This document shows positions 5,092 through 49,329 of a DNA stretch of 49,329 bases, in pieces (positions within the stretch are counted from its first letter, which is position 1; each line of letters starts with the position of its first letter). Source of the DNA: an uncultured delta proteobacterium (GTDB lineage: Bacteria; Myxococcota_A; Polyangia; Haliangiales; Haliangiaceae); the NCBI GenBank assembly GCA_963772655.1, contig CAVYYE010000009.1, positions 278,343-327,671 on the forward strand, given 5' to 3'. The position numbers were made by a program, and so were the translations under genes. The notes below the pieces were generated by a model. It did no database searches. It was given only the letters and a program-made list of their open reading frames with translations, and was not told the origin of the DNA.

Positions 5092-5093
5092 GT

Positions 5094-6992: not shown

Positions 6993-8229
6993 ATGACAAA
7001 GACCACTCGCGATCGTCACGCTCGCGGCACTTACCGGGGTGGTTTCGGCTCAGCCCGCGCCATCCGAGCCCGCGCCGCCGGCATCACCGACCACCGCACC
7101 CAACGGCGCCACCCCCCACGACCCCGGTCGCCCCGGTCGCCGAACCCGCCCCGGTCCCCGTGACCGAGCCGGCACCGGTTCCCATCGCCGAGCCACCGCC
7201 CGCGTCCACCGAACCGCCGCCCGACAAGCTTCACGTCGGCGAAGAAGGACTGTGGCAACCGGGACTGCTCGCCCAGGGTTGGTTCCTCGTCGACAACACC
7301 GGTGGCACCACGCCGCTGTCGACGTTCCGGTTGCGTCGGGCCGAGCTCGCGGTGAAGGGCGAGATCCTCCCGAAGCGCGTCTCGTACAAGGTGATGATCG
7401 ATCCGACCAAGGTGCGCGAGACCACCAAGGTCACGGTGGCCGGGCCACCCGATGCGATGGGCAACCCGACGACGGTCGACATCAACAACCCGACGAGCGC
7501 GATCTCGGCGCTCCAGGACTTCTACATCACCGGCAAGCTCGGCTTCGGCGAGCTCTCGGTCGGGCAATTCAAGATCCCGGTGAGCTGGGAGGGCTACAAC
7601 TCGTCGTCCAAGCTGATCATGCCGGAGCGCGCTGCGGTCTCGAAGACATACGGTGACAAGCGCGACCTCGGACTGCGCCTGACCAAGAAGTTTCCGAAGT
7701 GGGGCTACTCGGCGGGGCTGTTCAACGGCTCCGGGCTCAACAAGCTCGACAACAACAACCAGAAGGACGTCGCGCTCCGTCTCGAGGCGTATCCGGTTGC
7801 CGGGCTCACGCGTCGCGGGCGTGACCTACGACTCGCTCGGCTATCGCACGCGCGCCGGCACCAAGGATCGCTGGGAGGCCGACGTGCGCTACGAGCACGG
7901 TCCCTATCTCGCCCAGGCCGAGTTCATCCGCGCGCGCGACATCGCCGCTGATGGAGCCGACGCGGTGTCCGGCCAAGGTACCTACCTCGCCCTCGCCTAC
8001 ACGCTCGAGGATCCCGTCACTGCATGGAGACCTCCAGCCGGTGATCCGGATCGGATACTTCGACGGCGATGTCGACGTCAGCGACGACGAGCTCAGGCAG
8101 TACGACATCGGGGTCAACTACTACCTCAAGGGTCACGAGATGAAGTTGCAGGCGAGCTACTCGCGGCAGGACTTCGCCGCCGGCACCGACGTCAACGAGA
8201 TCATCCTCGCGACGCAGGTCGAGTACTGA
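6993..8229 (+). pseudogene. phosphate-selective porin O/P family (OprO/OprP-like), split over five frames by four +1 homopolymer insertions
   Basis: The signal peptide is restored (MTRPLAIVTLAALTGVVSAQ) if AAA at 6998-7000 is AA. It is followed by a Pro/Ala-rich linker and a porin body (RAELAVKG..QFKIPVSWEG..) ending ...YDIGVNYYLKGHEMKLQASYSRQDF..ATQVEY. Frames shift at A3 ~6999, C6 ~7105, G3 ~7805 and C3 ~8016. Confidence 0.65.
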
Positions 8230-8397: not shown

Positions 8398-9656
8398 TTG
8401 AACGAACGAGGAACCCTGCGGAGGTTCCTCGTTCTCGTCAGCATCCTCGCGATCCACCACGCACATGTGGCATTCGCCGACTCACCCAATGCGGGCGTGC
8501 CGGACGAAACGAATGACCCTTCTCGTCCGGCGGACACGGCGAGCGCGGACCACACCGCGAACGATTCCGTGGAGGCCGATCACGAAGCGAAGAAGAAAGC
8601 CAAGAAGCACGAGCACGAGCACAAGGCGAGAAGAAGAAGAAGAAGAAGATCGATTTTCGGGGAGAGGTGTTCGTTCGCGGGGCGATCGAAAAAGCCGAAG
8701 GAGATCCGGACCCGGTCGCACAAGGCTCCGTGAACCGCGCGCGCGCGAAGGCAAAGTACCGCTCGCACCAGCTCCGCGCCGAGATCGAAGTCGAGTTTGC
8801 CGGCAAGGCTCGGCTCAAGAACGCGTACGCCGACCTGCGCCTGTACGACGCCGGCACGAAAGTGGACGTGAAGGTGGGGAACTTCAAGGTTCCGTTCTCC
8901 GCGATCCAGCTCGATTCGCTTTGGACGTTGCCGCTGGCCGATCGCGGCTTGCTCGACAACGTGATCGTCAATCGTCTCCAGCTCGCCGGGCGCGAGGTCG
9001 GCGCGATGATCGACATCGAAGGCGCAGGAGACCTGCAGCCCGAGCTGAGGGCCGGCGTGTTTCAGGGGACCGACGACGCCGGGAACCCGCTCGCCGTGGC
9101 GGCGAGCGATCGCTTCGGCCAGAACGCGATCGTCCGGTTATCGCTCCGTCCGGCACATGGGCTCGAGCTCGGGGCCTCGGCCAGCGCCCGCGTCGGCGCC
9201 AAGATCGAACTGCCACTCGTCGTCCGTCGTGGTTACGCGAGCGAGCTCGACGTAACACTCGACGTGCCCGCGGGACCGGGCCAGCTTCGGGCGTGGCTCG
9301 AAGCCATGGTGGGCACGTCGTGGATTGTCGGCGGGACGGATCCCTCGCACGAGCTCACGCGGTTCACCGAGGCTCGCGGCATCGCCGCGTGGCGCTTCGG
9401 CCGGCGCGAGCGCCGGGCACGATTCTTCGAGATCTACTTTCTCGCCGGAGCGCTCGACCCGGACCGCACGTTCACCGGCGATCGCGTCCTCGAGCTCACC
9501 GGCGGCATCACCTACGGCGCGAACGACGTCTGGTCGATCCAGGCCGAGGCCGAGGTGTGGCGGATCGGCGACCAGGCGCCGCTCGGGATCGCGGAGTTCG
9601 CGGTCGCACCCTCGGACACCACCAACTTCCTTCTCCAGCTCGGGGCTCGTTTCTAA
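8398..9656 (+). pseudogene. second porin O/P-like outer-membrane protein, with a -1 frameshift near 8626-8630
   Basis: Signal peptide MNERGTLRRFLVLVSILAIHHAHVAFA and a His/Lys/Glu-rich segment (frame 1). The body (RAEIEVEF..NFKVPFS..LQLGARF, C-terminal Phe) is in frame 0. An (AAG)7 run lies at 8629-8649. Confidence 0.5.
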
Positions 9657-35134: not shown

Positions 35135-36976
35135 GTGCGGCGGTCTCGGAGTGAGGACGACGGTCCAGTAGTAGGTCGTTCGACCCACTGGCTCCTCGTC
35201 GGCCTCGCGCTGCTGACGTACCTCGCGAGTTGCACCGGCAACGGAGACGCTCGACCCGAGCCGACGAAGGCAGATCGCGCGGCCGTCGTCGAGCAGTCCG
35301 CGATGCACCTCCGGCATGCCAACGCGAAGCCGCCAATCGCGTGCAAGGCGTGCCACGAGCAGGTCGCCGGCGAGTACCTGCCTGCCACCAACTGGCAGTG
35401 CCAGCAGTGCCACGCGACCGAACCGATCGCGATCCACGACCGCGCGGGGGTCGATAGCCCGGCGCGCGAATGCTGGAGCTGCCACGACTTCACGTCGACG
35501 AAGGAACGCGTCACGCCGTGCATCGACTGCCACGCCAAGCCGCAGGGCGCGATCGCCGCGATCGCCCCGCACGATGCGAGCAAGCCGAACGAGGACTGCG
35601 CCACCTGCCACCGCGCACATCGCCAACCCGCCCTGGTGGCGACGAAGTGCGAGACCTGCCATCACGAACCCGTCAGCGGACACGACAAGGCCCGCAACCT
35701 GATCACCGGGTGCGCGAGCTGCCACGGCTATCACGAGAAGGCGGCGGTCGCGTCGACCCGCTGCACCAACTGCCACCGGCAATCGCGCGCGCGCGTACCG
35801 GCCACCGCGACGTTCGCCAAGGGTCACGTCAACTGCGTCACCTGCCACCGCCAGCACCGGTTCGCCAAGTCCGAGGTCCTCGCGTGCCGCGGCGAGTGCC
35901 ACGCCACGCAGGTCGCACTCGCCGAGACCAAGGTGCCGCAGCACCGCTGCACCGGATGCCACAACCAGCACGACGTCCGCGGGTCACCGGCGAAGTCGTG
36001 CGAGACCACGTGCCACGCCAAGTTGATCCCCGCGCATCCTCGCGATCGCGCGACCAAGACGCGGTGCCTGGGATGCCACGAGCCACACCGTGGGCCGGGC
36101 GCCCCGATCGCCGTCGCGTGCTCGCGATGTCACGTGGCGGCGAGCTCGGATCGCGCATTCCACCAGGGCGCGCAGAGTCGCGGACCGGAGTGCCGGAACT
36201 GCCACCAGCCGCACGCGTTCAAGAAGACCACCGCCGATGTCTCGTTGTGTCGGACCTGCCATGGCCCACAGCCGTTCCCCAACGCGAAGACGATCGTCAC
36301 GTTTGCCAAGCACGACAACTGCTTCGGGTGCCACGGCAAGACGGTCGCGCACCGGCCCGCCGGCCCGCGCGCCGAGTGCACGTCGTGCCACACCGACAAG
36401 GCCGGCAAGGTTCGCAAGGGCCACGCCCGCTGCGTCGGCTGCCACGACCCGCACACCACCAAGCAACGCTCGCCGTGCGCGACCTGCCACCCGACCGAGG
36501 CCTCGATCGCGTTCAAGGATCACCGCAACTGCATCAACTGCCACGAGCCACACGGCGGCACCCAGAAGCGCGCGTGCGGTAGTTGCCATACCAAGGAAGC
36601 CGCCACCGCCCCGGCGAAGCACCAGCAGTGTACGAACTGCCACGACCAGCACAGCACGCGCGTCAAGCGGTCATGCGGGTCGTGCCACACCGATCGAACG
36701 ACCGGCGTCCACGCGAAGCGACCGTGCCTCGACTGCCACCGGCCGCACGGCCCGCGCGGACCGGCATCACCGCCGGCGTGCACCAACTGCCACCACAACC
36801 TGCCGCTCATGCACCAGGTGCCGGCGCACAACACCTGCACGACCTGCCATCGCTCGCACGGCGAACAGCCGTACAAGCAGCGCGCGACCTGTCTGTCCTG
36901 TCACAAGGACCGCGCGAACCACAAACCGAACATGCCGCTGTGCTCGGCGTGCCACAACTTCGGAGGTGCTACGTGA
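35135..36976 (+). CDS. multiheme c-type cytochrome lipoprotein (~29 CxxCH / CxxxCH sites; doubled-CXXCH, Geobacter-type repeats)
   Basis: Lipobox LASC. 29 heme-binding motifs in 613 aa, many as CxxCHxxH units. GTG start. Confidence 0.8.
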   Translation: MRRSRSEDDGPVVGRSTHWLLVGLALLTYLASCTGNGDARPEPTKADRAAVVEQSAMHLRHANAKPPIACKACHEQVAGEYLPATNWQCQQCHATEPIAIHDRAGVDSPARECWSCHDFTSTKERVTPCIDCHAKPQGAIAAIAPHDASKPNEDCATCHRAHRQPALVATKCETCHHEPVSGHDKARNLITGCASCHGYHEKAAVASTRCTNCHRQSRARVPATATFAKGHVNCVTCHRQHRFAKSEVLACRGECHATQVALAETKVPQHRCTGCHNQHDVRGSPAKSCETTCHAKLIPAHPRDRATKTRCLGCHEPHRGPGAPIAVACSRCHVAASSDRAFHQGAQSRGPECRNCHQPHAFKKTTADVSLCRTCHGPQPFPNAKTIVTFAKHDNCFGCHGKTVAHRPAGPRAECTSCHTDKAGKVRKGHARCVGCHDPHTTKQRSPCATCHPTEASIAFKDHRNCINCHEPHGGTQKRACGSCHTKEAATAPAKHQQCTNCHDQHSTRVKRSCGSCHTDRTTGVHAKRPCLDCHRPHGPRGPASPPACTNCHHNLPLMHQVPAHNTCTTCHRSHGEQPYKQRATCLSCHKDRANHKPNMPLCSACHNFGGAT

Positions 36977-37629
36977 AGCGTTGCGTTTTGCGGTGGCTCG
37001 TCGCCGGCGCATCGATCGCCGTCGCGCTACTGGCGTGTTCTTCCCCCGTCGACGATTCCGAGGAGGCCTATCCGATGCCGCCGGAGTCGCGCGCGGTGCC
37101 CGCCGCACCGAACCCCGCTGACCAGGCACCGCTGCTGGTGCCCCCACCGTTCGAGTGCCGCGGCGTCCGCGACGACGAGCATGCGGGTGCGGAGCAGTAT
37201 CCGGTGCCGAAGCCGCCGTTCTCGTTCGGCGTGTTCCCGTGCACGCGGTGCCACGACAAACCCGACGACTTCAACCCGAAGCCGCGCCACCTGGTCTCGA
37301 TGCACCAGAACATCCAGCTCGCGCACGGCCCGCGCGAGCAGTGGTGCTACGACTGCCACAACCCGACGTACCGCGACAAGCTGCGGCTCGCCGGCGGACG
37401 GCTGGTCAGCTTCGAACGCTCGTACGAGCTGTGCGGCCAGTGCCACGGCGAGAAGCTGCGCGACTGGCGCTACGGGATCCACGGGCGCCGCATCGGGTGC
37501 TGGAACGGCCAGCGCCAGTACCTGTTGTGCGTGCACTGCCACAACCCGCACGCACCGCACTTCCGCCCGATGCATCCCAAGGCGCCGCCGGAGCGCCCCG
37601 CCGACATCCACCTCTCGAGGAGCGAGTGA
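36973..37629 (+). CDS. tetraheme c-type cytochrome lipoprotein
   Basis: GGAGGTG Shine-Dalgarno. Start overlaps the upstream stop (GTGA). Lipobox LLAC. Four CxxCH motifs (CTRCH, CYDCH, CGQCH, CVHCH). Confidence 0.7.
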   Translation: MKRCVLRWLVAGASIAVALLACSSPVDDSEEAYPMPPESRAVPAAPNPADQAPLLVPPPFECRGVRDDEHAGAEQYPVPKPPFSFGVFPCTRCHDKPDDFNPKPRHLVSMHQNIQLAHGPREQWCYDCHNPTYRDKLRLAGGRLVSFERSYELCGQCHGEKLRDWRYGIHGRRIGCWNGQRQYLLCVHCHNPHAPHFRPMHPKAPPERPADIHLSRSE

Positions 37630-38579
37630 TGACCCGACTACGCCACAAGTTGCCCGTCGTCTACGACGAGCCACCCGCCGAGCCATCCGGCGACGGCGGA
37701 GGCCAGAGCCGTCGCGCGTTCCTCCAGATGTTCGGCAAGGTCGCCGCGCTCGGCATGTTCGCCGCGTGCGACGAGGAGACCCGCGAGCGGATCTTCCGGG
37801 GCAGCTTTCGCGAGCTGTCTCCCGACGAGATCAAGCGGTACATCGCGCGCCTCGAGCGCGAGTACAAGGACACCTACGGTGTCGACGTGCGGGTCGGCGC
37901 CGAACCACCGATCGAGGGCGTGGTGTTCGCGTACGCGCTCGATCTCAGTCGCTGCATCGGGTGCCGGCGGTGCGTCCACGCCTGCGTCGAGGAGAACAAC
38001 CAGTCGCGCGATCCCGAGATCCAGTACATCACCGTGCTCGAGATGGAGAAGCGCCACGGCGTCGACCTCGAGCGCGCCAACGCCTACTACGACCCACTCC
38101 AGGTCCCGCGGCCGGGCCACTTCTATCTCCCGGTCGCCTGCCAGCAGTGCGACAACGCGCCGTGCGTGCGGGTGTGTCCCGTCGGGGCGACCTGGAAGGA
38201 GCCGGATGGCGTGGTCGTGATCGACTACGACTGGTGCATCGGCTGTCGCTACTGCATGGCGGCGTGTCCGTACGGTGCGCGCCACTTCAACTGGACCGAG
38301 CCCAAGCTCACGACCAAGGACCTCAACCCCAACACCCACGTGCTGGGCAACCGACCGCGACCCAAGGGCGTGGTCGAGAAGTGCCACTTCTGTTTGCACC
38401 GCACGCGCAACGGTCGCTATCCGGCGTGCGTCGAGACCTGTCCGGTCGGCGCGCGCAAGTTCGGCAACCTCCTCGATCCGAACGGCGAGATCCGCCGCGT
38501 GATCGACAACAAGCGGATCTTCGTCCTCAAGGAGGAGCTCGATACCAACCCGAGGTTCTTCTACTTCTACGGGGTGTAG
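37629..38579 (+). CDS. Tat-exported 4Fe-4S ferredoxin-type subunit (HybA/PsrB/ActB-like)
   Basis: Twin-arginine motif SRRAFLQ. Multiple CxxCxxCxxxCP clusters (CIGCRRCVHACV, CQQCDNAPCVRVCP, CIGCRYCMAACP, CHFCLHR). Confidence 0.8.
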   Translation: MTRLRHKLPVVYDEPPAEPSGDGGGQSRRAFLQMFGKVAALGMFAACDEETRERIFRGSFRELSPDEIKRYIARLEREYKDTYGVDVRVGAEPPIEGVVFAYALDLSRCIGCRRCVHACVEENNQSRDPEIQYITVLEMEKRHGVDLERANAYYDPLQVPRPGHFYLPVACQQCDNAPCVRVCPVGATWKEPDGVVVIDYDWCIGCRYCMAACPYGARHFNWTEPKLTTKDLNPNTHVLGNRPRPKGVVEKCHFCLHRTRNGRYPACVETCPVGARKFGNLLDPNGEIRRVIDNKRIFVLKEELDTNPRFFYFYGV

Positions 38580-38582
38580 GTC

Positions 38583-39797
38583 ATGAAGTTCGTCAAGTTC
38601 ATCGTCGACAGCGCGCGCGCCCTCCTCGGAAAGAAGGTGACGTTCTACCTCTGGCTCGGTGCGCTCGTGGTGATGCTGGCGATCGGCATCGACGCGTACG
38701 CCGATCAGTACAAGAACGGCCTGATCGAGACCAGCATGCGCGATCCGGTGTCGTGGGGGTTCTACATCGGCAACTTCACGTTCCTCGTCGGCGTCGCCGC
38801 GGCCGCCGTGGTGCTCGTGATCCCCGCCTACGTCTACGACTGGAAGCCGATCAAGGAGATCGCGCTGATCGGAGAGCTCCTCGCGATCACCGCGATCATC
38901 ATGTGCGTGATGTTCGTGACCGTCGACGTCGGCAACCCGCTACGCGTGTGGCACATGCTCCCGTTCGTCGGCTCGCCAAACTTCCCGTACTCGCTGCTGG
39001 CGTGGGACGTGGTGGTGCTGAGCCTCTACCTCCTGCTCAACCTGACGATCGCGACCCACATCATGTACCGGTCGTACCGGAACAAGCACTACAGCAAGAA
39101 GTTCGCGCTCCCGTTGATCATGTTCTCGATCCCCGCGGCCGTCGGCATCCACACGGTGACCGCGTTCCTGTTCGCCGGGCTACCGTCGCGCAGCTACTGG
39201 AATGCCGCGATCCTCGCGCCGCGGTTTCTGACCTCGGCGTTCTGCTCCGGTCCCGCGATCATCCTCGTGCTGCTCCAGATCCTGCGCCGCACGACGCGAC
39301 TCAAGGTCACCAACGAGGCGCTCTACAAGATCGCGGAGCTGATGGCGTACGCGATGTTCGTCAACCTGTTCCTGTTCGGCGCCGAGGTGTTCCGTGACTT
39401 CTACTCGTCGACGCGCGAGGTCATCCACTACCAGTACCTGTTCGGCACCGGCGAGTACTCCAACTCGCCGATCGCGATGTACGGCTGGTCGGCGTTGATC
39501 TTCAGCCTGGTCGCGTTCCTGCTGTTCCTGATCCCGCGGACGCGCAAGAACCTCGTCACCCTCAACATCGGCGCGGTGTTGATCTACTTCGGCGTCTACA
39601 TCGAGAAGGGCGTCGGCCTCGTGATCCCCGGGTTCACGCCGTCGACGCTCGGCGAGATCTATCACTACGCGCCGAGCTCGACCGAGCTGAAGGTGTCGAT
39701 GGGGATCTTCGCGTTCGGCGCGATCCTGTTCACGCTGATGGTGACCGTCGCGACCAAGTTCCTGTTCGCGAACCCCAAGCTGCAGGGCGAGCACTAG
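38583..39797 (+). CDS. NrfD/PsrC-family integral membrane (quinone-interacting) subunit
   Basis: 404 aa with about ten TM helices. Immediately downstream of the FeS subunit. Confidence 0.8.
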   Translation: MKFVKFIVDSARALLGKKVTFYLWLGALVVMLAIGIDAYADQYKNGLIETSMRDPVSWGFYIGNFTFLVGVAAAAVVLVIPAYVYDWKPIKEIALIGELLAITAIIMCVMFVTVDVGNPLRVWHMLPFVGSPNFPYSLLAWDVVVLSLYLLLNLTIATHIMYRSYRNKHYSKKFALPLIMFSIPAAVGIHTVTAFLFAGLPSRSYWNAAILAPRFLTSAFCSGPAIILVLLQILRRTTRLKVTNEALYKIAELMAYAMFVNLFLFGAEVFRDFYSSTREVIHYQYLFGTGEYSNSPIAMYGWSALIFSLVAFLLFLIPRTRKNLVTLNIGAVLIYFGVYIEKGVGLVIPGFTPSTLGEIYHYAPSSTELKVSMGIFAFGAILFTLMVTVATKFLFANPKLQGEH

Positions 39798-40766: not shown

Positions 40767-41453
40767 TCACTTCTGCTTCTTCACGATCTCGAGGTTCTTG
40801 CACGCCACCTGCGAGCCCAGCTTGCACGCCTTGCCGAGCAGCTCGATCGTCTTGGGCTTGTTCCTGGGCACGACCTTGCCCTCGAAGTACATGATGCCGA
40901 GCTCGGTGCAGCCGCGCGCCTGGTCGAGCTTGCACGAGCGCTGGAACAACCCGAACGCCTTCTGCAGATCCGGCTTCACGCCCTCGCCTTCGCGGTACAC
41001 GTTGCCGAGGTTGAAGCAGCCGAGCCCGTCGTCGAGCTTGCACGCCTTCTCGTAGAACCCGCGCGCCTTGACGTGATCGACCTTGGGTGCGCCTTCCTTA
41101 CCCTCCGACCACGACGTGCCGAGGTCGTTGCACGAACCGCCGTCGCCGAGCTTGCACGCCTTCTCGCGCAGCATGCGGGCCTTGGGAACGTCGCGCTTGC
41201 CGCCCTGCCCGAGCATCACCATCGTGCCGGCGAACCCGCAGCCCAGCGCGACCCCGAGCTTGCACGCCCGCAGGTAGAACCGCACCGCCTTGGCCTCGTC
41301 CTTGTCGGCCAGGTACTGCTGGCCGATCGTCAGGCACACCTTGCCGCGGCCGGCGCCGCACTGCTTGAGCTGCGCGCGCGTGGGGGCGTCCGCCCGCGCC
41401 ACCTGGGCCACCCCCAAGATCCCCGACAGCACGCATATCGCGATCGTCCTCAT
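40767..41453 (-). CDS. Sel1-repeat (HcpA/HcpC-like, Cys-rich) secreted protein
   Basis: Signal peptide, then six repeats of KACxLGxxxGCxxLGxxYxxGxGVxxD. Confidence 0.8.
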   Translation of the reverse strand: MRTIAICVLSGILGVAQVARADAPTRAQLKQCGAGRGKVCLTIGQQYLADKDEAKAVRFYLRACKLGVALGCGFAGTMVMLGQGGKRDVPKARMLREKACKLGDGGSCNDLGTSWSEGKEGAPKVDHVKARGFYEKACKLDDGLGCFNLGNVYREGEGVKPDLQKAFGLFQRSCKLDQARGCTELGIMYFEGKVVPRNKPKTIELLGKACKLGSQVACKNLEIVKKQK

Positions 41454-41559: not shown

Positions 41560-41641
41560 GCGATTGTGGCGGAATTGGTAGACGCGCTGGATTCAGGTTC
41601 CAGTGGGTAACACCGTGGGGGTTCGAGTCCCCCCAATCGCA
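41560..41641 (+). tRNA. tRNA-Leu (CAG)
   Basis: Acceptor GCGATTG/CAATCGC, D-arm GCGGAATTGGTAGACGC, anticodon loop TTCAGGT, long variable arm, T-arm GGGGGTTCGAGTCCCCC. Nearly identical in its 5' half to E. coli tRNA-Leu(CAG). Confidence 0.85.
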
Positions 41642-41699
41642 CGACGCTCTTCGCCCCTTGGCAAAAGGGGCGAACGTCGTTTTCGGGCGTCCGGAAAAC

Positions 41700-42040
41700 G
41701 GACCGACCCGATTTCGTTTCCGGATTCGGAGGCACTGCGATGTAGCGCTCCAGTGGGTGACCGCTCGCCGAGCTTCTCGACCACGCGGCGCGAGCTCATC
41801 CGCTTCTGCGTTCCCGGCTGTACGTAGTGCGCGTGGGTGACCACCGCCGACGTGTGACCGAGCGCGCTCGCGACCGCGTGCGAGGACACCCCCGCCTCGG
41901 TCGCCAGCGTCGCGTGCAGTCCCCGCAGGCTGTGCACGCACACCCGCGGGATCTCCGCCTCGTCGCACAGCACGCCGAGCCAATGACGGAGCCACTGCCG
42001 GTTGCGCCGGTTGCCACGCGGCGTGACCTCGCGGGTGATC
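41700..42040 (-). pseudogene. tyrosine recombinase (phage integrase) C-terminal fragment, N-terminally truncated
   Basis: HSLRGLHATLATEAGVSSHAVASALGHTSAVVTHAHYVQ carries the HxLR...LGH...HY catalytic motifs. The coding frame upstream of ~42040 is replaced by rhs sequence. Lies just 3' of tRNA-Leu. Confidence 0.6.
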
Positions 42041-43272
42041 AGCTGCTCTTCGATCTCGAAAATGGCACGCAGGCCGTCAAGCACGTGTTTGCCGGCTCGA
42101 CGCGGGTCGCCAGCGAGTTGTCGAAGTTCGAAAGCGGCGAGGATCCGACCGCCCCCGACAGACCCGGCACTGCCTACTTCTTCCACTCCGACCATCTCGG
42201 TTCGACGTCAGTGCTGACCGACGAGAACGGAACTGTTCAGGAGTCGCTCGAGTACTTCTCCGATGGTGAGACGTGGATCGACCGCGGTCCGTCCAAGCCT
42301 ATCAACGGGTACCTGTTCAGTGGCAAGCCGTTCGATCCCGACTCGGGGTTCTATGACTTCGGGCAACGCTTCTATGAGCCGCGAACGAGCCTGTGGGTAG
42401 GAGTTGACTCAGCCCTTAGGGAAGAAGCCAACAGATCCATTGGCAACCCCTCTTTCCTTGCTTCACAGGCATACGCTGCCCACAAGCCCGTGACACTCGC
42501 AGATCCCGATGGGAGATGTCCGGGGTGCGTAATCGTCATATTTATTCTCCTAAACTCCGAGGGAGAAGCGGGTGAGAACGCAAAACCACATCCTACGAAT
42601 TGGCAAGTTCTCATGGGCGCGGTTACGACTGCGACGGCTGCTAAGTTCTTTATTGGGATAAACAATGCTGCTGCAGCGGGAGTATCATCCCGACTTGGCA
42701 CTGGAGTGGTTGCTCGGAGAGTGGCAGGCGCTGTCGGTGGAGCGGTAGGTGGTGCAGCTACGGGACCGGTTGCTGTTGCCGGCAACGACATTGCGCATGG
42801 CCAAATCAGTTCGCTGGGGACATATGCCAAGGCCGGGGCACTTGTGGGTGGACTCTCAGGTGCGATTTTCCCGGGAAGTGTAGGTACCCGAACAAGAATA
42901 GCGGTCGCCCGCGACCCCTTCTCGATTAAAGCAACGGTAGCTGGAGACGCAAGAGCGTTCGCACGGATTGAGGTCGAGGGTTCAGTAGCTAACGTGACCG
43001 ACGTATTTCGTGGCGGCCTTCCGCCAGGGGGTGGCTCCGACCTCGTAGCCGCGGCGCTCCGAGAATCTGGTGTAAAATCCGGCGGCCAACTTGTGTTCTC
43101 TAATATCCAAAACGCACCGACACAAGCCACGTTCGCCGCTGGGGGCAACCCGGCCACTTCGGTCCTTGGGCAGACGGGCACACGTGCCCTCAAACAACTC
43201 GGCTTGCGACCCAGCAACTTCGCCTTCCAAGAAGTTGGCGGGAAGCTCAACCTCGTCATAGGGATCCAGTGA
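41983..43272 (+). CDS. orphan rhs 3' fragment: end of the RHS core (..YFFHSDHLGS..PFDPDSGFYDFGQRFYEP..DPDG) plus a variable C-terminal toxin domain with a Gly/Ala-rich hydrophobic segment
   Basis: RHS repeat-associated core C-terminal signature followed by the DPDG demarcation, then a 250-aa CT containing VLMGAVTTATAAKFFIGINNAAAAGVSSRLGTGVVARRVAGAVGGAVGG. No N-terminal RHS body. An internal ATG at 41983 is a possible start. Confidence 0.6.
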   Translation: MTEPLPVAPVATRRDLAGDQLLFDLENGTQAVKHVFAGSTRVASELSKFESGEDPTAPDRPGTAYFFHSDHLGSTSVLTDENGTVQESLEYFSDGETWIDRGPSKPINGYLFSGKPFDPDSGFYDFGQRFYEPRTSLWVGVDSALREEANRSIGNPSFLASQAYAAHKPVTLADPDGRCPGCVIVIFILLNSEGEAGENAKPHPTNWQVLMGAVTTATAAKFFIGINNAAAAGVSSRLGTGVVARRVAGAVGGAVGGAATGPVAVAGNDIAHGQISSLGTYAKAGALVGGLSGAIFPGSVGTRTRIAVARDPFSIKATVAGDARAFARIEVEGSVANVTDVFRGGLPPGGGSDLVAAALRESGVKSGGQLVFSNIQNAPTQATFAAGGNPATSVLGQTGTRALKQLGLRPSNFAFQEVGGKLNLVIGIQ

Positions 43273-43622
43273 AGTACTTCTCAGATACAGATGCGCGCCT
43301 CATCGAAGCGCTGAAGCTAGACCCCAATGCCGAGCCTGGTTTTGAGGTCCTCAAGGGTTGTCTGATCTGGTCGGATGAAGTGCCCGAAGGACTATCTCGG
43401 TCTGGGCACGAGCGCCTCAATGATCTGCTTGCTGCTCGGGGATTAATGCACCTCGGACAAGACCTGTCACAAATCCCAGAGCCATATCGAAACGCCTGGT
43501 TGGCAGCCACGGATTCCAAAATCGCCTGGCCGGGATTTCAGCGTCTTGTCCTCTCACCTGCAGAACGTCGGTATTTGGAGAATGAGATTCGATTGCTGGA
43601 AGAGTGGGACGGACCGCTGTGA
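43269..43622 (+). CDS. putative immunity protein for the rhs-CT toxin (hypothetical)
   Basis: 117 aa in lower-GC DNA. Start overlaps the toxin stop (GTGA). Confidence 0.4.
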   Translation: MKYFSDTDARLIEALKLDPNAEPGFEVLKGCLIWSDEVPEGLSRSGHERLNDLLAARGLMHLGQDLSQIPEPYRNAWLAATDSKIAWPGFQRLVLSPAERRYLENEIRLLEEWDGPL

Positions 43623-43625
43623 CTT

Positions 43626-44876
43626 GTGAGAGTTGAAATGCAGAGCCCTCAATGCTCTCGGAGAGACCAACAACGCTCTGGCTCTTATCGGCGGCCAATG
43701 GATCCCATTCTGAGAACCATCGCAATGGTGGATAGAGACATCGACATATCTGCGGTTCTCGCAGAGCCGCATAGTGAATCGGTTCGTCAAGTGTATGCGG
43801 ATTCCTTGTTGGAACGCGGCAATCCGAGAGGTGAGTTTATCAGCCTTCAGCTAGCTGCCGCGCGAGGCTCGAGAGATTCCCAAGCAGGTCAACGCGAAAG
43901 CGTGCTACTCAGCAGATACTCTCAACAGTGGATGTTCCATCCGGAATGGTGGCATTTGCGATGGAAACAGGGATTCGCAGATACACTCGAGGCCGGTTTT
44001 CTAGAGCCTTCTGCATCGCTCAATCCCGCCACAACCGATTTTCTTCGATCCCATGGGGTTCTGAACGAGCGTGACAAATGGGAAGGCTGTTTTCTTGAGA
44101 ACTTCTTTTCATTAGTCGAAGCCCGCCTGCTCACCAGTGCGCACATAGTTCTGACAGACTTCATTCAATCAGCTGCCGCCTTGGTAAACGCCATGGGCGC
44201 CAATGGACCACTTCGGCTTTCGAGATTGACTGTGGAATCCCGTTACGCACGACTGGGTCCTCAGTCAACAGCAGTATCATCAACATTTCAGGGACTGGCA
44301 TTTCCATCGCCAGGCACTCAAGGCTGGCCGCTTGTTTCCTCGTCGGCGCTCTCAAGATTCAGCAAAGCAACGCCGTTCCTTAGCGAACTACGTTTGGCGC
44401 TGCCGGGGTTCCTTAGCAGCTTTCAACATGCGCAGCTACAGAGGCTTAAGATCTACGGACACCGGACCATCTCGGATTCTGATAACAATATTGTGATTGA
44501 CGCAAGGAGTCTGCGCTCGCTGGAACTTACTATCGACACACCAATCGATGAGTCGCCGGTACTTCCCGTGGAATCATTGGTTCTCGACCCTGACAGGCTG
44601 CCGAGGCTGCAAGAACTTGCACTCTGCGGTGGCGAGTATGTCACCTCCGAGAAGACGGTAGCCCGTTGGGTCGCTGGCCAGCCGATACTTCGTCAACTGC
44701 GAGTTCTGTGGATCCCGGAGATTTCCGATCAGGACGACGCAGCGTCGTTGGGGCAACGATTTCGACATCTCGATCGGATCGTAGTCCAACGAGTTGGACA
44801 ACCACGCTCGTTGCTCGAACAACACCTTCCGCAACTCCGTGTTTTACCACAAGTAGCTTGCTGGACACCTAGCTAG
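43626..44876 (+). CDS. TIGR02996 (repeat-companion) domain protein with C-terminal LRR-like repeats
   Basis: N-terminus ILRTIAMVDRDIDISAVLAEPHSESVRQVYADSLLERGNPRGEFISLQ matches the Gemmata-type TIGR02996 domain. C-terminal LxxLxL repeats. Lower GC. The alternative start MDPILRTIA at 43698 is more likely. Confidence 0.5.
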   Translation: MRVEMQSPQCSRRDQQRSGSYRRPMDPILRTIAMVDRDIDISAVLAEPHSESVRQVYADSLLERGNPRGEFISLQLAAARGSRDSQAGQRESVLLSRYSQQWMFHPEWWHLRWKQGFADTLEAGFLEPSASLNPATTDFLRSHGVLNERDKWEGCFLENFFSLVEARLLTSAHIVLTDFIQSAAALVNAMGANGPLRLSRLTVESRYARLGPQSTAVSSTFQGLAFPSPGTQGWPLVSSSALSRFSKATPFLSELRLALPGFLSSFQHAQLQRLKIYGHRTISDSDNNIVIDARSLRSLELTIDTPIDESPVLPVESLVLDPDRLPRLQELALCGGEYVTSEKTVARWVAGQPILRQLRVLWIPEISDQDDAASLGQRFRHLDRIVVQRVGQPRSLLEQHLPQLRVLPQVACWTPS

Positions 44877-44890
44877 ATTGCGGTGCAAAA

Positions 44891-44913
44891 CAGCCACGCA
44901 AGTGGCTGGATTT
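44891..44913 (+). terminator. candidate rho-independent terminator
   Basis: Stem CAGCCAC / GTGGCTG, loop GCAA, then GATTTCG. Confidence 0.3.
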
Positions 44914-44999
44914 CGATCATGTCACCGTCGGGAGCACGTCCGAATCGACGCTTCCGGATCGACACCGATCGCTGAATGTGATCAGTAGTGATGGATGAC

Positions 45000-45335
45000 G
45001 GCACGACGACGGCGTGGGCAGACGTCCTTCAATGACTGGTTCGCGTTCGGAGGAGTTCCTCGGCCCGAGGAGCTGATGGATCCGGTGCTCAAGCAGCTCG
45101 ACGGAGTGCTCGATGACGAGGGTCTGGTCGATCGCGTCTTTGCGGCGCTCTCGAAGCGCCACCAGGAAAGTGCTCGCACTGGGCGACCGAGCACGCCGGC
45201 GGAGGTGGTGCTGCGAATGCTGGTGCTCAAGCACCTTCGCGGCTGGAGCTACGAGCGCTACGAGCAGCTGCAGTGGGAGGTGACGGGCAATTTCCTGTAT
45301 CGCCGGTTCTGTCGCATCGACGGAGGCGACCACAT
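45000..45335 (+). pseudogene. IS5/IS1182-family transposase N-terminal (InsH_N / DUF772) fragment
   Basis: VVLRMLVLKHLRGWSYERYEQLQWEVTGNFLYRRFCRI matches the DUF772 motif. Ends abruptly at 45330, fused in frame to a duplicated toxin segment. Confidence 0.5.
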
Positions 45336-45579
45336 CCTACGAATTTGGCAGCTCCTCATGGGCGCGGTTACGACTGCGACGGCTGCCAAGTTCTTTATTG
45401 GAATAAACAATGCTATTGCAGCGGGAGTATCCTCCCGACTTGGCACTGGAGTGGTTGCGCGAAGAGTGGCGGGCGCTGTCGGTGGTGCTGTAGGTGGTGC
45501 AGTTACGGGACCGGTTGCTGTTGCCGGCAACGACATTGCACACGGCCAAATCAGTTCGCTGGGGACATATGCCAAGGCC
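45331..45579 (+). repeat. ~250-bp duplicate (~93% identical) of the rhs-CT toxin hydrophobic segment 42587..42834
   Basis: Direct comparison: cacatcctacgaat...catatgccaaggcc is shared, with a 1-nt indel and a few substitutions. Downstream it continues as a different short C-terminus (..APLLGALVGGFFGAAFHRKPHQQQMSPT, stop 45663). Confidence 0.8.
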
Positions 45580-45815
45580 CCGCTATTGGGCGCTCTCGTG
45601 GGCGGATTTTTTGGTGCGGCTTTCCATCGGAAGCCTCACCAACAACAGATGTCACCAACGTAACTCGCTGGGGACGAAAAGGGCTTGAATCAGGTGATTG
45701 GGTGATGAAAGGTGAGAACACCTACGGTAACTACCTCAAGTCCGGTAAGTTTCAGCCTAGGTGGCAGTGACCTGCCCGGGTTCTGCGGACCATCGGGATC
45801 TAGAAGATTGCGCTC

Positions 45816-46670
45816 CTAGTTGAAGTGCTGTGTAGCGGACTCTTCGGTTGCCTGTTTCCTCTTGAACTCGATCGGAGTCAAGTAGTCGAGGCTGGAGTGT
45901 GGCCGCACCTCGTTGTAGTGACGTCGCCACGCCTCGATGACGACGACCGCTTCGGTGCGGCAGCGGAACCATTCGAGGCTCAGGCACTCGTCGCGCAGCT
46001 TGCCGTTGAAGCTCTCGTCGAGCCCGTTCTGCCACGGCTTGCCCGGATCGATGAAGGCTGTCTCGATCCCCTCGTCGGCGAGCCACTGCAGGATCGCTCT
46101 CGCGACGAACTCGGGGCCGTTGTCGGAGCGCAGATAGCGAGGTGCGCCGTGGACGCTGACGAGCCGTGCGAGCACCTCGATGACCCGTCGAGACCGAATC
46201 GCGCCGGCGACGTCGATCGCGAGACACTCGCGCGTCCACTCGTCGACGACGGTGAGGCACTTGAGCTGGCGGCCGTCGGCGCAGGCGTCGAACACGAAGT
46301 CGATCGCCCACACGTGATTCTTCGCCGTCGGCGGGGTCGGCCGAGGTCGTCCCGTGGCGATACGTCGACGAGGTCGCTTGCGTGGGACCTGGAGCTTGGC
46401 CTTCTTCCACAGGCGATGGACCCGATCGGCACTGATCGGCTTGCCGAGCGCCCGCGCGAGGAAGATCCGGATGCGGCGATAGCCGTATCGCGGGTACTGC
46501 GCCGAGAGCTCGCGCATCTTGGCGATCACCGGCGCGTCGAGCTCGTCGCGCTTGGACTCGTACTCGAGCGTCGACCTCGCCGTGTCGAGCAGCGCGCACG
46601 CTCGTCGCTCCGACAGGCCGCGCCGTTTGGCGTACGCGACCTGCCGGCGACGGACGGGCGCGCTCACCAT
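45816..46670 (-). CDS. IS3-family transposase OrfB (rve integrase core); OrfAB fusion by programmed -1 frameshift
   Basis: A AAA AAA at 46671-46677 (minus strand) followed by ATG GTG in the -1 frame. DDE core motifs. Also has its own ATG at 46670. Confidence 0.8.
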   Translation of the reverse strand: MVSAPVRRRQVAYAKRRGLSERRACALLDTARSTLEYESKRDELDAPVIAKMRELSAQYPRYGYRRIRIFLARALGKPISADRVHRLWKKAKLQVPRKRPRRRIATGRPRPTPPTAKNHVWAIDFVFDACADGRQLKCLTVVDEWTRECLAIDVAGAIRSRRVIEVLARLVSVHGAPRYLRSDNGPEFVARAILQWLADEGIETAFIDPGKPWQNGLDESFNGKLRDECLSLEWFRCRTEAVVVIEAWRRHYNEVRPHSSLDYLTPIEFKRKQATEESATQHFN

Positions 46671-46927: not shown

Positions 46928-47007
46928 CGCGGACTCCGTTTCGTCAGGACGGAGCGTCAACTTTCTCGATCAGGCTGGCCAGTTTTTGGCCGGGCAGGTC
47001 AGCACCT

Positions 47008-47069
47008 GAGGACACCCCCGCCTCGGTCGCCAGCGTCGCGTGCAGTCCACGCAGGCTGTGCACGCACAT
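47008..47069 (-). repeat. 62-bp copy of the integrase segment 41883..41944 (encodes CVHSLRGLHATLATEAGVSS), one mismatch
   Basis: Direct sequence identity. Bounded by the IS3 end on one side and rhs core sequence on the other. Confidence 0.8.
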
Positions 47070-47070
47070 C

Positions 47071-48096
47071 GAGCTCCACTTCCACGGCCTTGCCAACAAT
47101 CTGCTCGCTTCGGTCGCCTACGACGGAACCGTGCGAGCGAACTTCCGCTACTCACCGTTCGGCGAAGTCATCGAGGCACAGGGCACCGTTCCTGGCTCCC
47201 TCACTCGGCGCTTCAACGACAAGCACCAAGACGCCGTCAGCGAGCTCCACTACTACGGGCTCAGATACTACGATCCCCTAAGCCTCACGTGGACGCAAGC
47301 CGATCCCCTGTTTCGATTCGTCCCGGATCTCGCGAAACAATCTACGCCCCGACGCGCGCATCTGTACGAGTTCAGCCTCAACAACCCGGTACGCTACATT
47401 GATCCGGACGGAGCAAACCCGGCTCCAGTCCCCGTACCGGAGAGTCCGCAAACCCTCCAACAACGGGCGCTTGCTTCACGCATCGCTGATGAGGACTGGA
47501 CAATAAAGTTTGCGGAGGTCCCCGCCGGAACGTACTCATCGCCCAATCTGTTCGACACGAGCTGCCAGCCGCCAAGCTGCTATAACGACGTCCACCAAGA
47601 CAACTTCGATGATCCGAACGCCACGATGGCGATGCAGACCATCGATCCTCAGTATCGTGATTACTGGTTTCAGGATCCGGGATGGATCGTTAAGGGACCA
47701 GCACTAATCATTGGAATAGTCGCCGTTGGTTTGGAGCTAGGGGTGGGAGAGGGTATCGCGATTGGCAGAGGTGCTGCAACCACTACCGCGACGACTGGAG
47801 AAGCGATAACCGCCGATACCGTCCAGAACGCTGTCGCTAATTCCTGTATGCTCAGCCAGCAGACAACGGTCTCACTTCCCGTCGTTGAGAACTACGTACA
47901 GCGACTTCTCGGAGGAGAAGTTGCTCCTGCAATTAGAGTCGCAGGCAACGTAATCGTCGATGGAGTGCATCGATACGTGGCAGGCAGTATCGTCGGACAA
48001 TTGCCCGCGACAATGGAGTGGGCTGCCCCAATGAGTGCCAACCTCTATCCTGTATGCAAACTCGGGGTTGACGTTGTAGACTGGGGCAACAGATGA
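47071..48096 (+). CDS. second orphan rhs 3' fragment with a different C-terminal toxin domain
   Basis: ..YSPFGEV..RRFNDKHQDAVSELHYYGLRYYDPLSLTWTQADPL..NPVRYIDPDG is the canonical RHS core end. The 230-aa CT is unrelated to the first. Lower GC. No proper start (GTG at 47131 is possible). Confidence 0.6.
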   Translation, partial: ELHFHGLANNLLASVAYDGTVRANFRYSPFGEVIEAQGTVPGSLTRRFNDKHQDAVSELHYYGLRYYDPLSLTWTQADPLFRFVPDLAKQSTPRRAHLYEFSLNNPVRYIDPDGANPAPVPVPESPQTLQQRALASRIADEDWTIKFAEVPAGTYSSPNLFDTSCQPPSCYNDVHQDNFDDPNATMAMQTIDPQYRDYWFQDPGWIVKGPALIIGIVAVGLELGVGEGIAIGRGAATTTATTGEAITADTVQNAVANSCMLSQQTTVSLPVVENYVQRLLGGEVAPAIRVAGNVIVDGVHRYVAGSIVGQLPATMEWAAPMSANLYPVCKLGVDVVDWGNR

Positions 48097-48533
48097 TTCG
48101 AATTTTCTGTGATACTGGGAAACACGTCATCATTAATACTGACACCTTGGTGGGAGCCGATCTGCGCGGACGGGATCTTCACCGTGCTCGGCTCAGCAAC
48201 ATTGATCTGACTGGTGCTCAACTCACAGACGCTAATTTGCGTGGTGCGCTCCTCAACGGAGCTGTCCTGGTTGGTGCAGATTTGGAGCGAGCGAGACTGA
48301 TGGCGGCGCAGTTGGTAGGAGCAAACCTCTGCGGAGCCAATCTAAAGCAAGCCTGGCTCAATGCCGCGATCTTGAAGAACGCGAGTCTCCAGAAAGCAGA
48401 CATGCGTGAAGCACGTTTGGACCACGCGACCTTGGAAGGTTCAGATCTGACGCACGCGAAGCTAAGCCGCAACGCTCTAACCGTCGCCAGTAACGCAGAC
48501 GTGCTCGGTTTAGAGTTGGTGGAATGGGAATGA
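48093..48533 (+). CDS. pentapeptide-repeat protein (candidate immunity protein)
   Basis: Tandem A(D/N)LxG pentapeptides (ADLRGRDLHRARLSNIDLTGAQLTDANLRGALLNGAVLVGADL...). ATG overlaps the toxin stop (ATGA). Confidence 0.7.
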   Translation: MIRIFCDTGKHVIINTDTLVGADLRGRDLHRARLSNIDLTGAQLTDANLRGALLNGAVLVGADLERARLMAAQLVGANLCGANLKQAWLNAAILKNASLQKADMREARLDHATLEGSDLTHAKLSRNALTVASNADVLGLELVEWE

Positions 48534-48870: not shown

Positions 48871-49329
48871 TGACCTGCCCGGGTTCTGCGGACCATCGGG
48901 ATCTAGAAGATTGCGCTCCTAGTTGAAGTGCTGTGTAGCGGACTCTTCGGTTGCCTGTTTCCTCTTGAACTCGATCGGAGTCAAGTAGTCGAGGCTGGAG
49001 TGTGGCCGCACCTCGTTGTAGTGACGTCGCCACGCCTCGATGACGACGACCGCTTCGGTGCGGCAGCGGAACCATTCGAGGCTCAGGCACTCGTCGCGCA
49101 GCTTGCCGTTGAAGCTCTCGTCGAGCCCGTTCTGCCACGGCTTGCCCGGATCGATGAAGGCTGTCTCGATCCCCTCGTCGGCGAGCCACTGCAGGATCGC
49201 TCTCGCGACGAACTCGGGCCCGTTGTCGGAGCGCAGATAGCGAGGTGCGCCGTGGACGCTGACGAGCCGTGCGAGCACCTCGATGACCCGTCGAGACCGA
49301 ATCGCGCCGGCGACGTCAATCGCGAGACG
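48871..49329 (-). mobile_element. second IS3-family copy, left end only (runs off the window); ~99% identical to 45768..46226
   Basis: Identical IRL TGACCTGCCCGGGTTCTGCGG and OrfB C-terminal coding (48919..49278 on minus). Confidence 0.85.

What the first reader, a model, noticed from the sequence alone, without database searches (positions are those of the whole stretch)
43626..44876. TIGR02996 (Gemmata-type repeat-companion) + LRR protein inside a polymorphic-toxin locus
The N-terminal ~60 aa (..VRQVYADSLLERGNPRGEFISLQ..) match the TIGR02996 domain, which is normally seen as large paralogous families with LRR tails in Planctomycetes and myxobacteria and has no assigned function. Its position here, directly after a small ORF downstream of an rhs CT toxin and in the same lower-GC block, raises the possibility that members of this family act as immunity or accessory proteins of polymorphic toxin systems.
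Basis: inference. Interest (0 to 1): 0.6.

Follow-up and report, generated by a model that had tools for sequence, protein, structure and literature searches.

The report
LRR immunity-like gene in Rhs island

Summary
The ORF at 43626-44876 is real, with a likely start at ATG 43698 (392 aa). It passes the TIGR02996 cutoff, and a confident AlphaFold model is an LRR solenoid, although Pfam LRR models miss it.

- **Adjacent toxin tip:** its conserved partner is the 117-aa ORF. Toxin domain and 117-aa gene recur together, with the same 4-nt overlap, on two other contigs, and no TIGR02996 gene follows on the one contig that extends downstream.
- **LRR gene:** it lies in a 1,687-bp segment that recurs at 99.8% identity on contig L001. 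There it overlaps the stop of a Tc-type main rhs gene by 16 nt, which is the immunity slot. The window keeps the last ~22 codons of that toxin.
- **Composition:** GC3 of the LRR gene (0.52) matches that toxin tip (0.48-0.49), not the IS (0.75) or host genes (0.93-0.97).
- **Family level:** in 80 genomic loci plus seven closest relatives, neighbours are housekeeping genes. Only one of 35 tightly coupled upstream genes is a toxin.

LRR-type immunity proteins next to polymorphic and Rhs toxins are already described. My verdict is a probable displaced LRR-class Rhs immunity gene, of modest novelty and untested experimentally.

The parts
43698..44876 (+). TIGR02996-head + LRR protein gene (392 aa), the probable displaced Rhs immunity gene
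   Evidence: ORF. An identical protein is called from this ATG on L001 and L002. TIGR02996 scores 32.3 bits against a cutoff of 29.05. AF2 pLDDT is 81.5 and the fold hits are LRR proteins. GC3 is 0.52.
43749..43931 (+). TIGR02996 helical head (residues 18-78 of the 392-aa form; HMM match 43749-43862)
   Evidence: A separate AF2 model of residues 1-105 has pLDDT 84.3. It has no significant PDB fold match (best E = 1.6, TPR-like hairpins) and is not an F-box.
43950..44843 (+). LRR solenoid (residues ~85-382; about 10-11 short strands alternating with helices)
   Evidence: Secondary structure of the model. Foldseek matches LRR proteins. An LxxLxL-type periodicity is shared with full-length relatives.
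43644..43713 (+). Remnant of the last ~22 codons plus stop of the L001-type Rhs toxin gene (frame +1: ..ALNALGETNNALALIGGQWIPF*), overlapping the LRR gene start by 16 nt
   Evidence: In L001 the intact 572-aa Rhs ORF (4355-6073) ends with exactly this sequence. In the window this frame is closed by TGA at 43627-43629.
43644..45330 (.). 1,687-bp segment duplicated at 99.8% identity in another Rhs context (L001 6004-7690); contig L002 is exactly this segment
   Evidence: blastn. Both junctions are sharp. The assembler broke L002 at both boundaries, so the segment is a repeat in that sample.
44870..45330 (+). 5' part of an IS5/ISNCY-like element (DUF772 transposase), truncated at 45330; left inverted repeat at 44870-44891 abuts the LRR gene stop codon
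   Evidence: L001 has 22-nt perfect IRs at 7230-7251 and 8836-8857, with coordinates transferred to the window by the offset. DUF772 and ISNCY hits.
42172..43272 (+). 5'-truncated orphan rhs fragment: core end (DPDG at about 42502-42513), glycine-rich pre-toxin region, and 124-aa toxin domain CT1 (42898-43269)
   Evidence: TIGR03696 hit. The toxin domain is 88% and 69% identical in L090 and L091. The first ~100 codons of the listed ORF overlap an integrase remnant on the other strand.
43269..43622 (+). 117-aa ORF, the conserved partner (probable cognate immunity) of CT1
   Evidence: It overlaps the CT1 stop by 4 nt. Homologs P0155 and P0156 show the same 4-nt overlap after CT1 homologs. No family match.
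41560..41642 (+). tRNA-Leu(CAG), left edge of the low-GC island
   Evidence: ARAGORN. GC drops from about 42200.
41596..42195 (-). Tyrosine-integrase C-terminal remnant; a 61-nt piece is repeated at 47008-47068
   Evidence: Phage_integrase E = 1.5e-5, 25.3 bits against a gathering cutoff of 27.1, so just below cutoff. Repeat.
45329..45625 (+). Second, 88%-identical copy of the CT1 pre-toxin region (42585-42871), fused to the truncated transposase frame and cut by an IS3
   Evidence: blastn self-comparison. It starts exactly where homology with L001 ends.
47066..48096 (+). Second orphan rhs fragment (core stub plus CT3); its 5' 275 nt are 83% identical to the core of the L001 main rhs
   Evidence: TIGR03696 at 59.5 bits. 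blastn of L001 5016-5293 against window 47066-47340.
48093..48533 (+). Pentapeptide-repeat protein overlapping the CT3 stop by 4 nt (probable CT3 immunity)
   Evidence: Pfam Pentapeptide E = 1.8e-27. A pentapeptide-repeat antitoxin/immunity protein structurally similar to Tsi6a is described in bioRxiv 10.64898/2026.07.13.738213.

Best explanation
The gene encodes a cytoplasmic leucine-rich-repeat protein capped by a TIGR02996 helical head. It is most likely the immunity protein of an Rhs toxin that is not in this window. On contig L001 the same gene sits in the immunity slot of a Tc-type main rhs gene, where its ATG lies 16 nt before the toxin's stop codon. An IS5-like element then inserted at the LRR gene's stop codon. 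Afterwards a 1.7-kb piece (the last ~22 toxin codons, the LRR gene and the IS 5' part) was copied by recombination into the tRNA-Leu island seen here. That island is an array of 5'-truncated orphan rhs tips, each with its own small partner gene. By inference, the LRR solenoid would bind the incoming or self-made toxin domain and block it, as other repeat-scaffold immunity proteins are proposed to do. The window copy would therefore act as an orphan or extra immunity gene. Shown here: gene, fold, duplication, junctions, layouts and composition. Inferred: direction of the copying event, binding and protection.
For: The identical gene lies downstream of, and overlaps, a 572-aa Rhs ORF with RHS repeats, the TIGR03696 core and a DPDGL boundary. 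That rhs has a TcdB_toxin_midN/FG-GAP N-terminal part and is split by an IS21. Homology between the two loci starts 54 nt before the ATG, inside the L001 toxin ORF, with a sharp junction. GC3 steps down at the DPxG boundary and stays low through the partner gene in all three modules: cores 0.69-0.73, tips 0.48-0.57, partners 0.52-0.56. The L001 tip is 0.48-0.49 and the LRR gene 0.52, against 0.75 for the IS and 0.93-0.97 for host genes. The gene has the same orientation as the rhs pieces in both loci. The window's orphan-3 shares 83% DNA identity with the L001 rhs core, linking the loci as one rhs family. The LRR fold is confirmed. LRR immunity proteins are a recognised class (PMC3482391) and are reported after Rhs-CTs in Stenotrophomonas (bioRxiv 10.64898/2026.07.13.738213). 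Full-length relatives end at the same point, so the IS left the fold intact.
Against: There is only one independent toxin-adjacent occurrence, because the two copies share one history (identical IS junction). The L001 toxin tip has no detectable homologs, so toxin-partner co-variation cannot be tested and the tip cannot be shown to be complete rather than cut by the cassette. The family at large, including the closest full-length relatives, is not toxin-linked. At 392 aa the protein is large for an immunity protein. No binding or protection data exist.
Confidence: 0.5

Rival explanations
1. Hitchhiker. The gene is an ordinary member of the TIGR02996-LRR paralog family, with an unknown protein-binding role unrelated to toxins. 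IS-associated rearrangement carried it into two rhs loci, which tolerate insertions. In L001 it would then interrupt the rhs gene rather than follow it.
For: Family members are overwhelmingly in housekeeping contexts with host-like GC3. An IS abuts the gene in both copies, and both loci are riddled with IS21, IS3 and IS5 elements. Both junctions are sharp. The completeness of the L001 tip is unproven.
Against: The duplicated unit is not bounded by IS ends: the left end lies in toxin-coding sequence and the right end inside the transposase gene. GC3 of the gene matches the toxin tips, not the IS or host paralogs. Orientation and the 16-nt start/stop overlap match a toxin-immunity layout. At 236 aa after DPDGL, the L001 tip has a normal length.
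Confidence: 0.27
2. One reading: the LRR protein is the immunity, a second immunity, or an accessory protein for the adjacent 42480-43272 toxin tip.
For: It lies 75 nt downstream of the CT1/117-aa pair, on the same strand and in the same low-GC block.
Against: The CT1 toxin domain and the 117-aa gene form a conserved, overlapping pair on two other contigs, and homology to the window ends at the 117-aa stop. The one contig that extends downstream (L091) continues with unrelated sequence, while L090 ends 31 nt after the stop. The LRR cassette starts at a sharp junction 21 nt after that stop and carries the tail of a different toxin. Known Rhs accessory genes lie upstream of rhs (my own knowledge), and none matches.
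Confidence: 0.05
3. Decaying relic. The window copy is a non-functional leftover with no promoter of its own, clipped by the IS and kept only because the duplication is recent.
For: The surrounding array is degenerate, with truncated rhs pieces, a truncated IS and an interrupted tip. The copies differ at only 4 of 1,687 positions, so there has been no time for selection to show. If the IS target duplication is TA, about 19 C-terminal codons were replaced (inference).
Against: The ORF is intact over 392 codons in both copies, and the model is confident to residue ~387. Relatives end at the same place. This rival concerns present activity, not what the gene is.
Confidence: 0.1

Closest known systems
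LRR-type immunity proteins of polymorphic toxin systems ('Imm-LRR' / 'LRR-repeats' of Zhang et al. 2012, PMC3482391; the LRR protein in the Stenotrophomonas Rhs poly-immunity cluster, bioRxiv 10.64898/2026.07.13.738213)
   Same: It is an LRR solenoid encoded directly downstream of a polymorphic toxin C-terminal tip, in an array with other toxin/immunity modules, and it has no secretion signal by inspection.
   Different: It carries a TIGR02996 helical head that those descriptions do not mention. The host lineage appears to be Myxococcota, whereas Zhang lists actinobacteria, beta/gamma/epsilon-proteobacteria, firmicutes and tenericutes, next to T5SS toxins. Pfam LRR models do not detect it. Function is untested.
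TIGR02996 'repeat-companion' family (NCBIfam rpt_mate_G_obs)
   Same: It passes the curated cutoff, has the YAD..L.ERG.PRGEFI motif and an LRR tail, and belongs to large paralog sets in Myxococcota and Planctomycetes.
   Different: GC3 is 0.52 against 0.8-0.98 for the genomic paralogs surveyed. It sits in an rhs island rather than a housekeeping context. It has N in place of the near-invariant D of GDPRGE. Identity to any relative beyond the head is at most 29%.
Orphan rhs tip/immunity arrays and orphan immunity genes (Koskiniemi et al. 2014 PLoS Genet, cited; Poole et al. 2011, my own knowledge)
   Same: The island holds 5'-truncated rhs fragments that keep a core stub, each followed by an overlapping small gene. 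An immunity gene is retained without an intact toxin. GC drops at the core/tip boundary.
   Different: The array lies at a tRNA-Leu island with an integrase remnant rather than directly downstream of the main rhs gene. It is heavily reshuffled by IS3 and IS5 elements. The LRR module keeps only ~22 toxin codons.
F-box/LRR proteins (Skp2, COI1, TIR1, D3; bacterial GALA effectors)
   Same: The overall shape is a small helical head plus an LRR arc, and these are among the best Foldseek matches to the whole model.
   Different: The head modelled alone gives no F-box match and no significant PDB match at all. TM-scores to the F-box proteins are low (0.29-0.35).

Membership tests
TIGR02996 domain family (NCBIfam) | HMM score at or above the curated cutoff (29.05 bits) | tested here: met
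   32.3 bits, E = 6.1e-8, profile positions 7-45 of 45.
TIGR02996 domain family (NCBIfam) | Conserved head motif (P..D...R.VYAD.L.ERGDPRGEFI.LQ) | tested here: met
   Alignments A2 and A6. All near-invariant positions are kept except D42, which is N in this protein.
TIGR02996 domain family (NCBIfam) | C-terminal leucine-rich-repeat tail | tested here: met
   There is no Pfam LRR hit, but the AF2 model and Foldseek give LRR proteins as top matches. Some relatives hit LRR_6.
TIGR02996 domain family (NCBIfam) | Large paralogous sets in Planctomycetes and myxobacteria | tested here: met
   1,321 clusters. The genome scan confirmed 431 stretches, and the best 80 are mostly Myxococcota, with several MAGs contributing 3-4 loci each.
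LRR-class immunity protein of a polymorphic (Rhs) toxin | LRR fold | tested here: met
LRR-class immunity protein of a polymorphic (Rhs) toxin | Encoded immediately downstream of, and co-oriented with, a toxin C-terminal tip | tested here: met
   In L001 the gene overlaps the rhs stop by 16 nt. In the window only the last ~22 toxin codons remain.
LRR-class immunity protein of a polymorphic (Rhs) toxin | Recurrent pairing or co-variation with one toxin domain across genomes | tested here: inconclusive
   The L001 tip has no homologs in 5.8 billion proteins or in the PDB. The LRR protein has no close relatives other than identical copies.
LRR-class immunity protein of a polymorphic (Rhs) toxin | Binds and neutralises the cognate toxin | not testable with these tools
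   This needs co-expression or pull-down. Complex prediction with L001 sequences was not possible under the tool's input rules.
Rhs polymorphic toxin (neighbouring genes) | RHS/YD repeats, RHS-associated core (TIGR03696), DPxG(L) boundary followed by a variable tip | tested here: met
   TIGR03696 scores 34.7 and 59.5 bits in the window and 58.8 bits in L001. RHS_repeat is found in L001.
   One of 35 tightly coupled upstream genes is a toxin (L012). Three of 676 genes within 6 kb carry RHS or eCIS_core markers. None of the seven closest relatives is toxin-adjacent. Limits: the sample is 80 of 431 loci, the gene caller is home-made, and genes beyond the tightly coupled upstream neighbours were screened only with a few RHS and eCIS_core sequence queries (tblastn/phmmer), not the full Pfam library.
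F-box/LRR proteins | N-terminal F-box fold | tested here: not met
   The head modelled alone (pLDDT 84.3) gives no F-box or other significant PDB match.

The most novel reading that the evidence does not exclude
The huge, fast-diverging TIGR02996-LRR paralog sets of Myxococcota and Planctomycetes could be a dispersed repertoire of cytoplasmic toxin-binding proteins: orphan immunity genes against the many polymorphic toxins exchanged in kin discrimination. The rhs-linked copy here and the eCIS_core-linked copy in L012 would be the rare members still next to their toxins.
Probability: 0.07. Interest if true: 0.7.

Novelty: new member of a known kind. Interest (0 to 1): 0.3.

Why it matters
TIGR02996 is a large uncharacterised family: the term returned no papers in the searchable library, and HMMER finds 1,321 clusters. 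This locus gives one member a concrete, testable partner, the L001 Rhs tip. It also adds a head-capped LRR variant to the known LRR immunity class, in myxobacteria, where Rhs toxins take part in kin discrimination (PMC10433427). The survey also shows that the family as a whole should not be annotated as toxin immunity. Finally, the work identifies a new conserved toxin/immunity pair (the 124-aa CT1 domain with the 117-aa protein) that has no family assignment.

Tried and rejected
- **Pfam on the ORF:** no LRR or other family at E <= 1, so LRR status had to come from structure.
- **PDB by sequence:** no hit for the LRR protein; only a meaningless E = 0.81 hit for the L001 tip.
- **Homologs of the L001 toxin tip:** none found, so the co-variation test was impossible.
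- **Literature:** the term 'TIGR02996' returned no papers.
- **F-box-like head idea:** rejected after modelling the head alone.
- **IS passenger-gene idea:** rejected because the IS has its own perfect inverted repeats starting at the stop codon, and the duplicated unit ends inside the transposase gene.
- **First GC3-only gene caller:** it missed low-GC island genes and was replaced.
- **afdb50 fold library:** unavailable.
- **The ~200-aa extension in long family members:** no immunity or other informative Pfam domain.
- **A toxin-linked subclade:** the L012 and L020 proteins share only the head with this protein.
- **Not attempted:** a metagenome-contig scan, because the protein databases had already shown no close relatives; promoter scans, because sigma-70 consensus is of doubtful value in this lineage.

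Full report
**Observation**

The + strand is open from 43626 to 44876. An identical 392-aa protein is called from ATG 43698 on two other public contigs. DNA similarity to those contigs begins only at 43644, so 43698 is the likely start. An exhaustive HMMER search finds 1,321 clusters at 50% identity, almost all through this head. Pfam sees no LRR. An AlphaFold2 model built with 16 sequences is confident (pLDDT 81.5, pTM 0.83). It shows a helical head followed by about 10-11 strand/helix turns. Its best PDB matches are LRR proteins: 2ra8, the F-box LRRs D3, COI1, Skp2 and TIR1, and ribonuclease inhibitor. Full-length relatives share the LxxLxL periodicity and end at the same place. The head modelled alone (pLDDT 84.3) has no significant PDB match and is not an F-box.

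**The island**

- GC falls from 68-72% to 53-59% after about 42200.
- The left edge is tRNA-Leu(CAG) at 41560-41642, next to a tyrosine-integrase remnant (the Pfam score is just under the gathering cutoff).
- Next comes a 5'-truncated rhs fragment with tip CT1, then the 117-aa ORF, which overlaps the CT1 stop by 4 nt.
- The LRR gene follows, then a truncated IS5/ISNCY-like element.
- After that is an 88%-identical second copy of the CT1 pre-toxin region, beginning exactly at the IS truncation point.
- The rest is an IS3, another integrase scrap, a second orphan rhs fragment with tip CT3, an overlapping pentapeptide-repeat gene, and part of another IS3 copy.
- Host genes have GC3 of 0.93-0.97, against 0.52-0.62 for island genes.

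**Who partners the adjacent toxin**

The 117-aa ORF has two homologs, at 82% and 69% identity. On their contigs each overlaps by 4 nt an upstream gene whose last 124 residues are 88% and 69% identical to CT1. Similarity to the window stops at the 117-aa stop codon. L091 continues with unrelated sequence, and L090 ends 31 nt after the stop. CT1 and the 117-aa protein are therefore a conserved toxin/partner pair, and the LRR protein is not part of that module.

**Where the LRR gene belongs**

Window 43644-45330 is 99.8% identical to L001 6004-7690, and the flanks are unrelated. Contig L002 is exactly this 1,687-bp piece, so the assembler broke at both ends of a repeat.

In L001 a 572-aa Rhs ORF with RHS repeats, the TIGR03696 core and DPDGL at residue 332 runs into the shared piece. 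It stops 16 nt after the LRR gene's ATG. Upstream in L001 are a TcdB_toxin_midN/FG-GAP region and an IS21 that splits the gene, so this looks like a Tc-type main rhs with the LRR gene in its immunity slot. The window keeps the last ~22 codons of that toxin, closed upstream by a stop codon.

The IS has perfect 22-nt inverted repeats in L001, and its left repeat abuts the LRR stop codon in both copies. The IS therefore inserted before the piece was copied. The copied unit is not an IS unit, because its right end lies inside the transposase gene. The window's second orphan shares 83% DNA identity with the L001 rhs core, which links the two loci as one rhs family.

In all three modules GC3 drops at the DPxG boundary and stays low through the partner gene. 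The L001 tip is 0.48-0.49 and the LRR gene 0.52, while rhs cores are 0.69-0.73 and the IS 0.75.

**Family-wide test**

- A scan of GTDB species genomes confirmed 431 stretches, and I examined the best 80 with 6-kb flanks.
- Their TIGR02996 genes have GC3 of 0.8-0.98 with few exceptions.
- The 51 co-directional upstream neighbours hit PilZ, VWA, EF-Tu, PNPase, RIO1, ABC transporters and similar families.
- Complete family lists for the 35 neighbours within 60 nt show no toxin domain.
- The one exception is L012, whose 1,237-aa upstream gene carries eCIS_core/DUF4157 at its N-terminus. That domain marks toxins of contractile injection systems (PMC8213781; 'PVC-metallopeptidase' in PMC3482391).
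- L020 has such a protein two genes downstream, in an island that also holds KAP NTPase and Schlafen genes. L057 has an RHS gene 3 kb away on the other strand.
- That makes 3 of 676 called genes, with no excess among immediate neighbours.
- The L012 and L020 proteins share only the head with the window protein.
- The seven closest relatives lie beside PilZ, Hsp70, efflux/methyltransferase or tricorn-like genes, or unknowns.
- The ~200-aa extension found in many members has no known domain.

Limits of this test: the sample is 80 of 431 loci, the gene caller is my own, and apart from the tightly coupled upstream genes only RHS and eCIS_core were screened (with sequence queries rather than the full Pfam library).

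**Interpretation**

The best-supported reading (confidence about 0.5) is a displaced copy of an LRR-class Rhs immunity gene whose cognate toxin is the L001 tip. Binding and neutralisation are inferred, not shown. The main rival (about 0.27) is that an ordinary family member was carried into rhs loci by rearrangement. The L001 tip has no homologs, so neither its completeness nor co-variation can be checked.

**Comparison with known systems**

Zhang et al. 2012 list LRR repeats among immunity proteins, next to T5SS toxins and in poly-immunity loci, in other phyla. A 2026 preprint reports an expressed LRR protein and pentapeptide-repeat immunity proteins in a Stenotrophomonas Rhs poly-immunity cluster. 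Rhs proteins take part in myxobacterial kin discrimination. This case is a new member of that kind. It differs by its TIGR02996 head and by coming from a family that is otherwise not toxin-linked. Interest is modest (0.3).

Noticed in passing
window 42898-43622; L090 236-960; L091 2-501: A 124-aa toxin domain with no family match (..RDPFSIKATVAGDARAFARIEVEGS..NLVIGIQ) and a 117-aa partner recur as an overlapping pair on three contigs. The toxin domain sits behind different pre-toxin regions: glycine-rich in the window and a tandem ~30-aa repeat in L090.
   Followed up: partly
window 47066-48533: A second orphan rhs fragment carries an unassigned ~230-aa tip, followed with a 4-nt overlap by a 146-aa pentapeptide-repeat protein. 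This is probably another toxin/immunity pair of the kind described for Tsi6a-like pentapeptide immunity proteins.
   Followed up: partly
window 45329-45663: An 88%-identical second copy of the glycine-rich pre-toxin region (42585-42871) is fused in frame to the truncated DUF772 transposase and is cut about 100 nt later by an IS3. It is a chimeric ORF of 222 aa with weak glycine-zipper hits.
   Followed up: partly
window 41560-42195 and 46947-47099: tRNA-Leu(CAG) with an adjacent tyrosine-integrase remnant marks the island edge. A 61-nt piece of the integrase (98% identical) recurs just before the second rhs orphan, so both orphans are joined to the same integrase scrap.
   Followed up: partly
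window 45768-46225 and 48871-49328: Two copies (99.6% identical) of an IS3-family element with HTH_Tnp_1 and rve ORFs. The second copy runs off the window end.
   Followed up: no
L001 8836-8880 compared with window 44870-44876: If the IS5-like element duplicated TA on insertion, the LRR ORF originally ran about 19 codons further (..WTPTKSGDVTTSLRSSWGAYE*). The IS would then have replaced only an unstructured tail.
   Followed up: partly
L012 2150-6969: A 1,237-aa protein with an N-terminal eCIS_core/DUF4157 domain and an unassigned C-terminus is followed, after 56 nt, by a host-like (GC3 0.91) TIGR02996 protein. This is the only other toxin-adjacent family member found.
   Followed up: partly
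L020 1-11152: A TIGR02996 gene lies inside a low-GC3 island of a Kofleriaceae MAG, together with a KAP-family NTPase, a Schlafen/AlbA_2 protein, an AAA ATPase with a winged-helix domain and an eCIS_core protein. The setting looks like a defence or conflict island.
   Followed up: no
window 35135-39797: Host genes just upstream of the island: a 613-aa protein with many CxxCH-like cysteine/histidine motifs, a 4Fe-4S-type ORF and a 404-aa polytopic membrane protein. Together they look like a multihaem cytochrome / iron-sulfur / NrfD-type respiratory module. This was judged by eye only.
   Followed up: no
window 40767-41453 (- strand): A 228-aa protein made of repeated ..KACKLG..GC.. units, resembling Sel1-like repeats, lies immediately before the tRNA. 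It was not scanned.
   Followed up: no
one search hit table; P0015, P0018, P0020, P0023: About 40% of the top family hits carry the TIGR02996 motif about 200 residues in, behind a conserved unannotated N-terminal region (..LLDAWR..R.P.IADLID..S..). Some extend to about 900 aa. P0022 has a SWIM zinc finger and P0029 an RNA polymerase alpha CTD.
   Followed up: partly
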